The notes beneath the pieces were generated by a model that was not told where the DNA came from, did not search any database, and saw only the letters and a program-made list of their open reading frames with translations. A DNA stretch of 64,000 nt, taken from the human T2T-CHM13v2.0 reference genome, Homo sapiens. How positions within the stretch are numbered: position 1 is the stretch's first letter; the number at the start of each line of letters is the position of its first letter. A program made the position numbers and the translations under genes. The stretch is taken from NCBI RefSeq assembly GCF_009914755.1, contig NC_060926.1; one strand, written 5' to 3'. Positions 51,963 to 55,752 of this stretch are shown here, one piece after another.

Positions 51963-53211
51963 CAGTCATAAGAATTTATATTGGCATTTCTTCTAAGACA
52001 TGTCTGCTAGCAATGGATTCTCTGTTCTTGTTGATCTGAGAATGTCTTTATTTTTGAAAGACAGCTTTAATGAACACAGGATTCTTTGCTGACAGCTGTT
52101 TTCTTTCAGTACTTTGAATGTTGTCCACTGTGTTCTGGCCTCCATTGTTTCTGATGAGAAGTCAGCTGTTGATCATGTTGTGACTTCCTTTGATGCGTCT
52201 GTTTGTGGATGTCTTTGTGTTCATCCTATGTGGAATTTGTTGAACTTCTTGGATGTGTAGATTAATGTTTTTCATAAAATTTAGGAAGTTTTCAGCTATT
52301 ATGTCTTTGAATAATTTTTCTGCTTTTTTCTTTTTCTTTTCTCCTTCTGGGACTCTCATTATGCATATGTTGATGCATTTAATGGTGTTCCACATTTTCC
52401 TGAGATTCTGTTCATTTTTCTTCATTCTTTCTTTTTCTCTTTTCTTCAAATTGCATAATCTCTATTGATCCATCTTCAAGTTTGGTAATTCTTTCTTTTG
52501 CCAGTTCAAATAAATCTTTTGAGCCCATCTAGTGAAAATGTCATTCCAGTTATTACTTTTCAACTCCAGGATTTCCATTTGGTTCTTTTTAAGAATTTCC
52601 ATCTCTTTAGTCTATATCAATAGTCTCTGTTTAGTTCAACATTGTCATCACACCTTCCTTTACCCTACTTTAATCATGGTTTACTTTACTATAATCATGA
52701 TTTCCTTTAGTTATTTGAATATATTTATAATAACTACTTTGAAGTCTTTGTCAAATTTGATAGCTGGTTGCTCTCAGTTTGTGTTTCCTGCTTTTCCACT
52801 CATATATGGGTCAGATTTTCCTGTTTCTTTACATGTCATAATTTTTTGTTGGAAATGGGACATTGTAAATAATACAGCAACTGTAGAGATGGGTTCTCTT
52901 CTCCTCTGGGGCTTGTTAGTAATACTTGATTGTTTATTTGTTTAGTGACTGGCTGTGAAGTCCACCCTCCAGTCCCCACAAGTTAAAGCCTCTGATGTTG
53001 CTCCTCAGAGGCACAGCCTTGGGCATATGCACAGTTACCCTGGGTTAGCAGCAGATTTGACAGGGCTCTCTTTGATTGTCTTTTTCCCTGACCACAGCCA
53101 TATGTTGTTAAACTCCACAAATTGCTGGCTGATTTCCCTGTTGTTTTCAACAATGCCCTAGGTTGCTCTATTGACTGATTCAATTAAATTTGGGCTTCTC
53201 TAAGGAATAGC

Positions 53212-54653
53212 TTTTTGTTGTTGTTGTTTCATTCATTAAATCATTTAGAAAATCTTTATTGACTACCAGCTCTGTGCCAGCCCCGTGGGAGGCACCAGGG
53301 ATATGAGTGTTAACATGACAGCCCCAGTGCCTGCTGTTGGGCTGAACTGCCTCTGACCAGCACTGCAGACTCAGACGTATCACTGATGTGGAGACATGCT
53401 TGTGTGATATTTAAAACCTGCTGGGTAGCATTTTGGCAGAAAATGCCATTGGTACTTTCCAGATACAGACTGTGAGAGCCATTTCAGGGACCAGTTTTTT
53501 TTTTCTCCCTTCTTTCCCCCAACCAACAACCTCAACTTCTCTGGTGTGAGGGGCGGGTGCATAAAATTAGCCAGGCCAGCAAGAAAAGTGGTCATCCTGA
53601 GGCTGGCAGAAGCAGCTGAAGCTGCCCCTTCTGTGGCTTCACCCCCATCCTCCAGCTCACTGGCTCCCCGTGCCCTGTAGAGAAATCCATCCTTGAGAGG
53701 ATTAGGGGCTGTGCCAAGAGCTTCACCCCACCCACCCACCCACCCACCCATCATAGTCCATTTTAGAGTGACAGCAAGGCCTTCACTGGGTAAGAGCCGT
53801 CTGACTCGTCTGCCTTCTGAGTGCCTCCATTTGGTGAGATGATAAAGTCACTGATGAGAAAAGGTGGGGCCAGGAACAGAGGCAACTGTGGCTTCCCAAG
53901 AGAAGTTTCTCAGGGGATTTCTCAAGCAGAATAAATTAGAGCTTCTTAGAATGACTCGATCCTGGCTGTGCATCAGGCAAACGTTCTCTTCATGGCTCAT
54001 TTCCGGTTCTCCTGGCCTGACAGGTGTTTCCAGATTATAGGTGAAAAGCAGTCACTTGGTCCCATACCGCATGAGGCCCACAGTTATCTTTGACAGCTGA
54101 TAAGAAGTGATGATGATAAAGTCAATTCTGTTTCCTTAGATGTCTCCTCTCACAAACAAACAAGCAACCTTCACACTCCTTCCTGTGCCCTCCTGGCACC
54201 AGCACAAGCTACGTTCCAGCACAGAGCTCACTCCAAGGATAGGCAGTGCCAGCTCTTGAGCGTGGTGTGGCCTCTGCTGTCCTTAACTCTGTTGCACTTC
54301 AGCAGCACTTCCATCTCCCTGACATTGTAGACCAGGAACTTCTGTAAGCCACTAGGCCCCAGGTGCTTTGTGTTTTTGTTGCTCCCATAACCAATGTTGG
54401 GCATCAAGATCTGGCCCTTGCACCTTCTACAAACCCTGTTATCAATACCTCTGGGTTTCCACCTGTTATGCTTCATTTTGACATACGTCTGACTGGTGCT
54501 GGATGAACTTCTTGGTCCTCTTTTTTATGATCTTGAGTTTCACAAGGGGTCTGAGGGTGGCCATGATGCCGAGTAAGAGATGGCTGCCACCACTCTAGGT
54601 AGCACCTAGAAAGAGGGGGATGGTGGCACACAAAGACTGATAGGGTGTAACCT
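53212..54653 (-). pseudogene. RPL32: Processed pseudogene of an RPL32-family transcript: 5' UTR, codons 1-92, then a non-RPL32 3' segment
   Basis: The minus strand reads the RPL32 5' UTR (...GGTGGCAGCCATCTCTTACTCGGCATC) and ATG at 54564 ([26 protein letters not shown]). After a 2-nt deletion it continues [45 protein letters not shown] to 54290, with no introns. AATAAA lies at 53255-53260 (minus), the A-rich tail at 53212-53229, and the TSD CTCTRAGGRATAGCTTTT at 53198 and 54654. Confidence 0.93.
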
Positions 54654-54671
54654 CTCTGAGGGATAGCTTTT

Positions 54672-54976
54672 TGTTGTTGTTTGTGTTTTCTTTGAGACGG
54701 AGTCTTGCTCTGTCATCCAGGCTGGAGTGCAGTGGCGCGATCTCGGCTCACTATAGCTTCTGCCTCTTGGGTTCCAGTGAATTCTCCTGCTTCAGCCTCC
54801 CGAGTAGCTGGGATTACAGGCATAAGCCACCATGCCTGGCTAATTTTTGTATTTTTGGTAGAGACGGGATTTTACTATGTTGGCCCAGCTAGTCTCAAAC
54901 TCCTGACCTCAGATGATCTGCCCACCTCGTCCTCCCAAAGTGCTAGGATTACAGGCATGAGCCACCACACCCGGCC
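54672..54976 (-). mobile_element. Alu (AluS) inserted at the retrocopy's target site
   Basis: Dimer with TSD TCTGAGGGATAGYTTTT at 54655 and 54977. Confidence 0.95.
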
Positions 54977-55752
54977 TCTGAGGGATAGTTTTTAAGGTCA
55001 GTGTTTCAGATTTGTTCTTACTCTAGGAGAGATCTTTTTATCTGCTTCTTTTCCTGGTTCTTGCTGGAAAACTAGCCAACCTATGGCTTAGCTTATATCT
55101 TTAATGAATCTACTAGTCTTCTCCTAATTGCTTTTCACCACAGCCTCCATTGTGTTTGGCATTGCCTCAGCTTGGAGGAAGCCTCCTCCTTTCAGCTGTA
55201 CTGGCCCAGAGCTTTGCCTCTGCCGCAAGGGATTGGGGGCAGAATGAGAAATGCTGACATCTTGTTCCTTCCAGGCAAGCAGGAAGACACCATAGCTCTC
55301 CAACCAAGAGCTGTGTGTTGCGGGTGGGTGAGCCAGACAGAGCTCTGTGTTCTTGGCTGCACCTGTCTGGAGTGGAATTTCAGTCACTCTGAGGTGGAAC
55401 TAGGGGAGGAGAGAGTAAGTCGTGGTTCAAATACCACAAATTTTCACTCTTCTTACTGAGTTCTTGCAGATTTTCTTGAGTAAATGTTTCATTTGCTCTA
55501 TGCCCTTGGGACTATTACCAGAGAATTTAAATTGTTGGTTTTTTAAAAAAATAATGTTCACCAGTTTCACTGGGGAGCAGGTCCAGGAGCTACTCATGTC
55601 ACCATACTGGAAGTCGAAACTTAACAGAAATTTTTATACAAACTTCAATTGTTTCTGAATTGCTCTGCTACAGAACGTAAGGCTATTATGTCTATGCTAA
55701 TGGCTTAAGTATTCTTAGATATAGGTGTCTCAACTGAAACTTTCTGTTAATT

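What the first reader, a model, noticed from the sequence alone, without database searches (positions are those of the whole stretch)
53212..54653. Full-length retrocopy of a non-canonical RPL32-family transcript with a foreign ~1 kb 3' end
Seen: the RPL32 match is only the 5' quarter of a single insertion. The TSD (53198-53215 and 54654-54671) brackets 1.44 kb, and the host L1 is continuous outside it. On the minus strand the insert begins in the extended RPL32 5' UTR and runs intronless through codon 92. At 54290 it switches to unrelated sequence, which in the RPL32 frame gives the tail [24 protein letters not shown]. It ends with an L2-derived AATAAA 25 nt before an A-rich tail. As I recall (needs checking), codon 93 is where the last RPL32 intron falls, so the switch looks like a splice to an alternative terminal exon. 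Inference: this is a fossil of a germline-expressed RPL32 isoform, or of the transcribed duplicate RPL32P3 (SNORA7B host), which would make it a processed copy of a pseudogene lncRNA. Annotation by protein homology would miss the 3' kilobase.
Basis: partly seen in the sequence, partly recalled or inferred. Interest (0 to 1): 0.8.

Follow-up and report, generated by a model that had tools for sequence, protein, structure and literature searches.

The report
Retrocopy of an ancestral RPL32P3 transcript
This is an old, dead, reverse-transcribed copy of an RNA from RPL32P3 (a partial duplicate of the ribosomal protein gene RPL32), and it preserves two end exons that the RPL32P3 locus has since lost by deletion.

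Summary
Window 54652-53226 (minus strand) is one intronless insert. It lies between a 29-nt target-site duplication (27/29 identical) inside an L1, just downstream of an older Alu.

The insert carries RPL32 exons 1-3 and starts at least 33 nt upstream of where 40 other genomic RPL32 matches start. It leaves RPL32 at the exon-3 donor, inside codon 93.

The "foreign" 1.06 kb matches only chr3 3q21.3, as two exons 10 kb apart that lie antisense in introns of IFT122. These exons sit 105-117 kb upstream of today's RPL32P3, so they cannot be spliced to it now.

However, the RPL32P3 locus is the RPL32 5' segment fused to a partial, antisense duplicate of that IFT122 region. That duplicate has a clean 12.9-kb deletion which removes exactly the two exons.

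Best reading (confidence 0.75): this is a processed copy of the early RPL32P3 transcript, made soon after the locus formed. The parent later lost those exons.

Rivals are trans-splicing and reverse-transcriptase template switching.

It is an ordinary kind of element with an instructive history. It has no intact reading frame and no sign of function.

The parts
54653..54681 (-). 5' copy of the 29-nt target-site duplication. It consists of 15 nt of the neighbouring Alu's A-rich tail plus 14 nt of L1.
   Evidence: 27/29 identical to 53197-53225; sequence
54570..54652 (-). RPL32-type exon 1 with about 40 nt of sequence upstream of the usual transcription start. It ends at the exon-1 donor (..CTCG).
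   Evidence: matches chr3:12843091-12843002, 75.6%; none of the 40 other matches starts before query position 34; three-way alignment
54471..54569 (-). RPL32-type exon 2, with the ATG at 54564-54562 and a private 2-nt deletion in codon 27
   Evidence: 89% to chr3:12841651-12841752; frame broken
54289..54470 (-). RPL32-type exon 3, ending at the exon-3 donor inside codon 93
   Evidence: 88.5% to chr3:12840859-12841041; the genomic donor is AA|gtgagt
54147..54288 (-). Exon 'srcA'. Its only genomic relative is chr3:132258712-132258858 (minus strand), in an IFT122 intron.
   Evidence: 82% identity; acceptor ..tattttcctgccgtgaacag| and donor GAGAG|gtgagt in the source; flanking IFT122 exons
53228..54146 (-). 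Terminal exon 'srcB'. Its only genomic relative is chr3:132247554-132248460 (minus strand), in another IFT122 intron 10 kb away.
   Evidence: 83% identity, E 9e-269
53255..53260 (-). AATAAA polyadenylation signal, 27 nt before homology to the source ends. The present chr3 copy reads AGTAAC here.
53226..53227 (-). 2-nt remnant between the end of source homology and the TSD. This is all that is left of a tail.
53197..53225 (-). 3' copy of the 29-nt target-site duplication
54682..54975 (-). Older Alu immediately upstream of the insert, with its own TSD (54976-54993 and 54654-54672). It is context and an age bound, not part of the retrocopy.
51993..52458 (-). ORF1 remnants of the host L1, in the same orientation as the insert. 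This is context.
   Evidence: PF02994 E 3.6e-9; PF17490 E 1.8e-4; flank continuity

Best explanation
The insert is an L1-mediated processed pseudogene of the early transcript of the RPL32P3 locus.

How the locus arose (inferred). A duplication in an anthropoid ancestor placed about 4 kb of RPL32 directly upstream of a partial, antisense-oriented duplicate of the 3' part of IFT122. The RPL32 piece ran from the promoter through exons 1-3 to about 0.9 kb into intron 3.

The transcript (inferred from the retrocopy). Transcription from the copied RPL32 promoter could not reach exon 4. Exon 3 was therefore spliced across a chimeric intron of about 4 kb to two exon-like segments in the IFT122 duplicate. 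The RNA was polyadenylated after the second segment.

Retroposition (shown by anatomy). One such RNA was reverse-transcribed into a T-rich site at the tail of an Alu in an L1 on chr2.

Later changes at the parent (deletion shown, order inferred). RPL32P3 lost the 12.9 kb that held both exons and now splices into sequence just beyond the deletion.

The retrocopy is non-coding and shows no sign of function.
For: 1. Retrocopy anatomy. There are three RPL32 exon joins and one further join without introns, a 29-nt TSD, AATAAA, and a location on another chromosome.

2. Source of the 3' part. The 3' 1.06 kb has exactly two relatives in the genome, both on the chr3 minus strand and 10 kb apart (E 9e-269 and 5e-30; 3 matches in all including self). 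Splice-site contexts sit at the edges. Both lie inside IFT122 introns.

3. Structure of the RPL32P3 locus (P). P is identified by SNORA7 in intron 1 and by the paper's statement that SNORA7B lies in an RPL32P3 intron at 3q21 (PMC6509762, passages read). Below its RPL32-like part, P continues as a colinear paralogue of the IFT122 region (Q). P 132138638-132139860 matches Q 132259759-132260970, which is 0.9-2.1 kb upstream of srcA. It abuts P 132138407-132138640, which matches Q 132246629-132246848, 0.7 kb downstream of srcB. Paralogy then continues for at least 14 kb.

4. The deletion. The junction in P is clean, with 2-3 nt of microhomology. P lacks exactly Q 132246849-132259759, the stretch that holds srcA and srcB.

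5. Today's RPL32P3 RNA runs into this duplicate. The published RPL32P3 reverse primer maps at P 132138510-529, about 110 nt below the deletion junction. Its forward partner maps in exon 2.

6. Dates agree (K2P, Kimura two-parameter distance). The non-CpG distance from the retrocopy to Q is 0.164-0.173. RPL32 to P in apparently unconverted flanks is about 0.13-0.21 (0.205 over 716 non-CpG sites upstream; 0.207 in the 5' part of intron 1). The retrocopy's one-lineage distance to the RPL32 exons is 0.085, about half of those values, as expected.
Against: - The exons are absent from P, so their former presence there is inferred from the flanks and cannot be compared directly.
- The retrocopy shares no non-CpG substitution specific to P. 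In exons 2-3 it agrees with P against RPL32 at 4 sites. Two are CpG sites. At the other two, 21 of 28 and 26 of 28 other RPL32 processed pseudogenes carry the same base, so RPL32 itself changed. In exon 1, 9 sites have the retrocopy equal to RPL32 and not P. Only 3 have it equal to P and not RPL32: 2 are CpG sites and 1 lies in the TSD. The copy must therefore have been made early in P's history, or before P existed.
- Q to Q' distances are a mosaic of 0.010-0.122, all below the retrocopy-to-Q distance of 0.18. This forces me to assume later gene conversion.
- The distal intron-3 RPL32-to-P distance (0.28-0.38, n=379) is higher than expected.
- At the exon 3 / srcA join the copy reads ..AACAGAGTT.. 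where donor plus acceptor predict ..AACAAGGTT.., so two adjacent substitutions are needed.
- In today's Q the srcB acceptor reads GG and the polyadenylation signal reads AGTAAC.
Confidence: 0.75

Rival explanations
1. Retrocopy of a trans-spliced or otherwise non-colinear chimeric RNA. The RNA would join RPL32 pre-mRNA at its ancestral site next to EFCAB12-MBD4-IFT122 to an IFT122-antisense RNA transcribed about 110 kb upstream on the same strand. It would have been made before, or independently of, the RPL32P3 fusion.
For: - Cattle keep the order IFT122, MBD4, EFCAB12, RPL32, SNORA7, CAND2 (PMC6345487, one table passage read). In human, RPL32P3, MBD4, IFT122 and RHO keep that order. The two sources were therefore neighbours.
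- The retrocopy shares no P-specific non-CpG change.
- Every measured Q-Q' distance is smaller than the retrocopy-Q distance.
Against: It leaves unexplained why RPL32P3 today has exactly the matching DNA architecture: an RPL32 piece cut in intron 3, followed by the sequence upstream of srcA and then the sequence downstream of srcB. Trans-splicing in mammals is rare (established knowledge). The donor exons lie downstream of the acceptor exons on the strand, so no linear cis transcript can give this order.
Confidence: 0.15
2. Chimeric retrocopy made by L1 reverse-transcriptase template switching, from an IFT122-antisense RNA to RPL32 mRNA during insertion.
For: The source DNA just upstream of srcA reads AACAG, the same as the copy at the join. 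A microhomology-guided switch would therefore need one substitution fewer than splicing does.
Against: - The RPL32 part stops within 1 nt of the exon-3 donor, not at a random place and not at the mRNA's 3' end.
- The other part starts at a pyrimidine tract plus AG.
- The two templates come from loci about 110 kb apart in a 3.1-Gb genome and from the same strand. Unlinked templates would do this by chance about 4 times in 100,000.
- The RPL32P3 architecture gives a direct cis explanation.
Confidence: 0.04
3. Retrocopy of an isoform of RPL32 proper that uses an alternative terminal exon downstream of RPL32.
For: The break is at the exon-3 donor. The RPL32 part is closer to RPL32 (89%) than to RPL32P3 (77-86%).
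Against: The whole-genome search found no match to the 3' kilobase near RPL32 at 3p25. In the ancestral gene order the source exons lie upstream of RPL32, not downstream. The greater identity to RPL32 is expected in any case, because RPL32 exons are conserved while RPL32P3 drifts.
Confidence: 0.03

Closest known systems
Ribosomal-protein processed pseudogenes (canonical RPL32 retrocopies)
   Same: L1-type insertion, loss of introns, TSD, decay of the reading frame. At least 28 such RPL32 copies were seen in this genome.
   Different: It lacks RPL32 exon 4 and the RPL32 3' UTR, and carries 1.06 kb from another locus instead. It also starts at least 33 nt further upstream than any of the 40 other matches.
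Retrocopies as fossils of past transcripts, and 'orphan' retrocopies whose parent was lost
   Same: A retrocopy preserves a transcript structure that the parent locus no longer has.
   Different: Here the parent is a non-coding, unprocessed partial duplicate (a snoRNA host). Only its two terminal exons were lost. Paralogues of those exons survive in IFT122 introns.
RPL32P3 (SNORA7B host lncRNA, 3q21.3)
   Same: RPL32-type exons 1-3 are spliced onto sequence of an antisense IFT122 duplicate. The promoter type is the same.
   Different: Today's RPL32P3 lacks the two exons carried by the retrocopy. Its present downstream exon lies just beyond the deletion.
Template-switch chimeric retrogenes (U6/L1 type) and circRNA-derived pseudogenes (recalled)
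   Same: One insert is built from two unrelated genomic sources. Relative to today's gene order, the exon order is non-colinear.
   Different: The join sits at a donor/acceptor pair. The 3' end is a polyadenylation site, not a back-splice. A DNA-level fusion explains the exon order.

Membership tests
L1-mediated processed pseudogene (retrocopy) | Parental introns precisely absent | tested here: met
   Exon 1/2, 2/3 and srcA/srcB joins coincide with the genomic exon ends.
L1-mediated processed pseudogene (retrocopy) | Flanking target-site duplication at a T-rich/A-rich site | tested here: met
   29 nt, 27/29 identical, starting in an Alu A-tail. The host L1 flanks are contiguous in 6 of 29 other copies where both alignments reach the site.
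L1-mediated processed pseudogene (retrocopy) | 3' end at a polyadenylation site with a poly(A) tail | tested here: inconclusive
   AATAAA lies 27 nt before the end of source homology. Only 2 nt separate that point from the TSD, so a tail of the insert's own is not visible.
Canonical RPL32 mRNA retrocopy | Contains exon 4 and the RPL32 3' UTR | tested here: not met
   The RPL32 match ends at the exon-3 donor.
Copy of an RPL32P3 transcript | The 3' exons lie downstream of RPL32P3's RPL32-like exons | tested here: not met
   They are absent from today's locus. Their two flanks are present and abut at a clean deletion junction, which supports former presence by inference only.
Copy of an RPL32P3 transcript | Substitutions shared with RPL32P3 against RPL32 | tested here: inconclusive
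   Only CpG sites or sites where RPL32 itself changed are shared. This fits an early copy or a copy that predates the locus.
Copy of an RPL32P3 transcript | RPL32P3 RNA is transcribed from the RPL32-like exons into the IFT122 duplicate | tested here: met
   The published primer pair maps to exon 2 and to P 132138510-529, inside the duplicate.
Template-switch chimeric retrogene | Join unrelated to splice sites; 5' partner usually ends at its own 3' end | tested here: not met
   The join is at the exon-3 donor and at a pyrimidine tract plus AG acceptor.

The most novel reading that the evidence does not exclude
The retrocopy is a dated witness of the first step of a primate chromosome-3 rearrangement.

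Proposed sequence of events:
1. A local complex duplication at the ancestral RPL32 site duplicated about 4 kb of RPL32 and copied in at least 30 kb of the IFT122 3' region.
2. This created a strongly expressed chimeric gene.
3. Only later did large rearrangements split the duplicated block. Intact RPL32 went to 3p25, and RPL32P3 stayed beside EFCAB12-MBD4-IFT122 at 3q21.3.

Pieces similar to IFT122 introns lie 2-13 kb upstream of RPL32 at 3p25, which fits a break inside the duplicate.

If this is true, the insert carries the only surviving sequence of the lost RPL32P3 exons. Its divergence would date the duplication independently of gene conversion.
Probability: 0.3. Interest if true: 0.55.

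Novelty: new member of a known kind. Interest (0 to 1): 0.4.

Why it matters
Annotation by RPL32 homology would call only the first 360 nt and miss three quarters of the insert. RefSeq lists no gene here at all, according to the hub table.

The case shows how a retrocopy can record a parent gene's earlier exon structure. Here the record is the original 3' end of a snoRNA host lncRNA that is now studied in cancer papers.

It also exposes the mosaic make-up of RPL32P3: an RPL32 5' piece, an antisense IFT122 partial duplicate, and patches that look like gene conversion. This sits at a place where human gene order differs from cattle. That may interest people working on segmental duplications and on primate chromosome 3 evolution.

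The insert has no open frame, and nothing suggests present function.

Tried and rejected
- Literature. A search for RPL32P3 found 41 papers. From the listing, none appeared to deal with its origin. I read passages of one (PMC6509762). A search for RPL32 + chromosome 3 + inversion + breakpoint + 3q21 found 0 papers. A search for IFT122P symbols found 1 gene-list paper, which I did not read. These four searches found no printed description of this retrocopy or of the RPL32P3/IFT122 duplication. Subscription papers are not covered.
- First working idea: the RPL32P3 origin was excluded. The source exons lie upstream of RPL32P3, and the central RPL32/RPL32P3 block is only 7% diverged. I dropped this after one search showed the IFT122 paralogue in RPL32P3 and one search showed that the low divergence is local, around SNORA7.
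- circRNA/back-splice origin. Rejected because homology ends at a polyadenylation-type site without a GT donor.
- Simple 121-kb tandem duplication. Not supported: 3 kb upstream of RPL32 has no paralogue upstream of RPL32P3, so the shared RPL32 segment is only about 4 kb.
- Relative-rate test on exons 2-3. The retrocopy has 28 changes against 16 for RPL32P3, after removing 2 RPL32-lineage changes. This is not decisive.
- Alu subfamily. It looks S-type, but only by diagnostic positions that I recall; not tested.
- 'L2-derived' polyadenylation signal. No repeat library was available; not tested.
- Absolute ages. Not given, because they would rest on recalled rates.

Full report
WHAT IS IN THE WINDOW

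Read on the minus strand, window 54652-53226 is one insert. It is flanked by a 29-nt direct repeat, 54653-54681 and 53197-53225, identical at 27 of 29 positions.

The repeat's first 15 nt are the end of the A-rich tail of an Alu (54682-54975). That Alu has its own target-site duplication (TSD) at 54976-54993 and 54654-54672. The L1 target motif is therefore present three times. The order of events was L1, then Alu, then this insert.

The host is an L1 in the same orientation. ORF1 domains lie at 52162-52458 and 51993-52169 on the minus strand. I compared both flanks with 29 other genomic copies of this repeat. In 6 of them both flank alignments reach the insertion point and abut once the TSD is counted a single time.

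THE RPL32 PART

The insert matches the RPL32 gene (chr3:12.84 Mb, minus strand) exon by exon, without introns:
- Exon 1 plus upstream sequence: window 54652-54570, 75.6% identity, rich in CpG.
- Exon 2: window 54569-54471, 89%.
- Exon 3: window 54470-54289, 88.5%.

Genomic exon 3 ends ..TGCAACAA|gtgagt, which is after the second base of codon 93.

None of the 40 other genomic matches to this part starts before query position 34, and 16 start exactly at 38. The RNA copied here thus began at least 33 nt upstream of the usual start. The 5' end may also be hidden in TSD microhomology, so 'full-length' cannot be claimed.

A private 2-nt deletion in codon 27 and several stop codons show that the copy is dead.

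THE 'FOREIGN' KILOBASE

A search of the whole assembly with 53230-54289 gave three matches: the window itself and two places on the chr3 minus strand.
- 132258712-132258857 (82% identity, E 5e-30). I call this srcA.
- 132247554-132248460 (83% identity, E 9e-269). I call this srcB.

In the source, srcA is preceded by ..tattttcctgccgtgaacag| and followed by |gtgagt. Homology of srcB ends exactly where the insert's TSD region begins, 27 nt after the insert's AATAAA. The 3' part is therefore spliced, polyadenylated RNA.

Pfam scans of plus-strand open frames place IFT122 coding exons on both sides of srcA and of srcB (TPR_IFT122 and Zn_ribbon_IFT122). Both exons are thus intronic and antisense to IFT122. 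RHO exon 1 lies 14 kb further up.

WHY THIS IS NOT A SIMPLE SPLICE TODAY

The intron-containing RPL32 duplicate lies at chr3:132141042-132141966. It carries SNORA7 in intron 1, so it is RPL32P3, the SNORA7B host at 3q21 (PMC6509762, passages read). It is on the same strand as srcA and srcB, but 105-117 kb downstream of them. No linear transcript of today's chromosome can join RPL32P3 exon 3 to srcA.

Cattle keep the order IFT122, MBD4, EFCAB12, RPL32, SNORA7, CAND2 (PMC6345487, one table passage read). Human keeps RPL32P3, MBD4, IFT122 and RHO in that order. RPL32P3 therefore sits where RPL32 once was, and the source exons were RPL32's neighbours. By chance, two unlinked loci would be this close and on the same strand about 4 times in 100,000.

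THE KEY RESULT

The sequence below RPL32P3's RPL32-like part is a colinear paralogue (Q') of the IFT122 region (Q):
- P 132138638-132139860 matches Q 132259759-132260970, which is 0.9-2.1 kb upstream of srcA.
- It abuts P 132138407-132138640, which matches Q 132246629-132246848, 0.7 kb downstream of srcB.
- Paralogy continues down to at least P 132124394, which matches Q 132231494.

The junction in P is clean, with 2-3 nt of microhomology. P lacks exactly Q 132246849-132259759: 12.9 kb holding srcA, srcB and five IFT122 exons.

The upper limit of Q' lies in a minisatellite.

The RPL32 segment shared with RPL32P3 is about 4 kb. It runs from about 0.8 kb upstream of exon 1 to about 0.9 kb into intron 3 and does not extend further upstream.

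The published RPL32P3 reverse primer maps about 110 nt below the deletion junction, and its forward partner maps in exon 2. Today's RNA does therefore run from the RPL32-like exons into Q'.

Before the deletion, exon 3 would have faced a chimeric intron of about 4 kb, then srcA', a 10-kb intron, srcB' and its polyadenylation site. That is exactly the structure of the insert.

DATING (K2P, Kimura two-parameter distance)

- Insert to Q: 0.207 for srcA and 0.179 for srcB (non-CpG 0.173 and 0.164).
- Insert to RPL32 exons 2-3, essentially one lineage: 0.116 (non-CpG 0.085).
- RPL32 to RPL32P3 outside the central block: 0.233 upstream (non-CpG 0.205; 200-column windows 0.13-0.31) and 0.27 (non-CpG 0.207) in the 5' part of intron 1.
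- RPL32 to RPL32P3 in the central 1.85 kb: 0.069 overall, with a minimum of 0.005-0.02 around SNORA7, rising to 0.11-0.16 at exon 3. I read this as conservation and/or gene conversion.
- Q to Q': a mosaic of 0.010-0.122, again suggesting conversion.

The unconverted RPL32-RPL32P3 distance thus roughly equals the insert-Q distance and is about twice the insert's one-lineage distance. This is what is expected if the insert's lineage left both RPL32 and Q at the time of the duplication.

RESULTS AGAINST THIS READING

- The insert shares no informative RPL32P3-specific change. In exons 2-3 it agrees with RPL32P3 against RPL32 at 4 sites. Two are CpG sites. At the other two, 21 of 28 and 26 of 28 other processed pseudogenes carry the same base, so RPL32 itself changed.
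- In exon 1, 9 sites have the insert equal to RPL32 and not RPL32P3. Only 3 have it equal to RPL32P3 and not RPL32: 2 are CpG sites and 1 lies in the TSD.
- The copy must therefore have been made in the earliest part of RPL32P3's history. That is plausible while the copied promoter was still intact. Today exon 1 has a 19-nt deletion and an Alu sits at +6 of intron 1. The alternative is that the copy predates the fusion.
- All Q-Q' distances are below the insert-Q distance. The distal intron-3 distance (0.28-0.38, n=379) is above expectation.
- The exon 3 / srcA join needs two adjacent substitutions. Today's Q has GG at the srcB acceptor and AGTAAC at the polyadenylation signal.

RIVALS

- Trans-splicing between neighbouring pre-mRNAs (0.15). 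This fits the lack of shared changes, but leaves the matching DNA architecture of RPL32P3 as a coincidence.
- Reverse-transcriptase template switching (0.04). This is favoured only by a 5-nt identity at the join. It is contradicted by the donor/acceptor positions and by the linkage of the two sources.
- An RPL32 isoform with a downstream exon (0.03). This is contradicted.
- A circRNA origin. Excluded by the polyadenylation-type 3' end.

COMPARISON AND VERDICT

By its anatomy the insert is a member of the L1-mediated processed-pseudogene class; only the poly(A) tail is not visible. It is not a canonical RPL32 retrocopy.

It works like the known 'fossil' retrocopies that preserve lost parental structures (literature recalled, not read here). 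The parent in this case is a non-coding partial duplicate, and the loss concerns two terminal exons.

I rate it a new member of a known kind, with interest 0.4.

The boldest reading still open (probability 0.3) is that it time-stamps a local complex duplication that preceded the separation of RPL32 (3p25) from RPL32P3 (3q21.3). Pieces resembling IFT122 introns lie 2-13 kb upstream of RPL32.

Gene positions in hg38, absolute ages and Alu subfamily features are recalled, not computed.

Noticed in passing
window 54654-54672, 54976-54993 and 53197-53211: The same 14-nt L1 target motif (CTATYCCTYAGAG) occurs three times, because an Alu and then the retrocopy used overlapping target sites. The retrocopy's TSD copies 15 nt of the Alu tail.
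   Followed up: yes
L036/L071, chr3:132143906-132144300 (RPL32P3 exon 1 region): RPL32P3 keeps a homologue of the RPL32 promoter and exon 1, but with a 19-nt deletion in exon 1 and an antisense Alu inserted at +6 of intron 1. This may explain weak or altered transcription starts today.
   Followed up: partly
L034 vs L036, chr3:12840687-12842509 vs 132140878-132142731: Divergence between RPL32 and RPL32P3 is as low as 0.005-0.02 around SNORA7A/SNORA7B and about 0.2 in the flanks. This points to gene conversion or selection centred on the snoRNA.
   Followed up: partly
chr3:132124394-132139860 vs chr3:132231494-132260970 (L035, L036, L070, L037, L038): This is a partial unprocessed duplicate of the IFT122 3' part, with copies of coding exons. 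Its identity to IFT122 is a mosaic (K2P 0.010-0.122), including a 700-bp patch at 99% that holds the zinc-ribbon exon.
   Followed up: partly
chr3:12855239-12856419 (-), 12856458-12856694 (+) and 12845587-12846099 (+), upstream of RPL32: Further pieces 81-91% identical to the IFT122-intron / RPL32P3-side sequence lie 2-13 kb upstream of RPL32 at 3p25. Another relative is at chr3:131608813-131609628. Segmental duplicates may therefore flank both sides of the place where human gene order departs from cattle.
   Followed up: no
L038, chr3:132260462-132261783: A minisatellite of about 1.3 kb lies in an IFT122 intron. Similar arrays (65-70% identity) occur at many loci. The upper edge of the duplicate in RPL32P3 falls inside it.
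   Followed up: no
RPL32 exons 2-3, positions 150 and 189 of the joined exons (chr3:12.84 Mb): At two synonymous sites the functional gene has A. At the same sites 21 of 28 and 26 of 28 processed pseudogenes, RPL32P3 and this retrocopy have G. The changes are therefore recent in RPL32, or the site is polymorphic.
   Followed up: no
window 53380-53847 (-): The longest stop-free stretch in the insert (155 codons, inside srcB) has no Pfam match. I take it as chance.
   Followed up: yes
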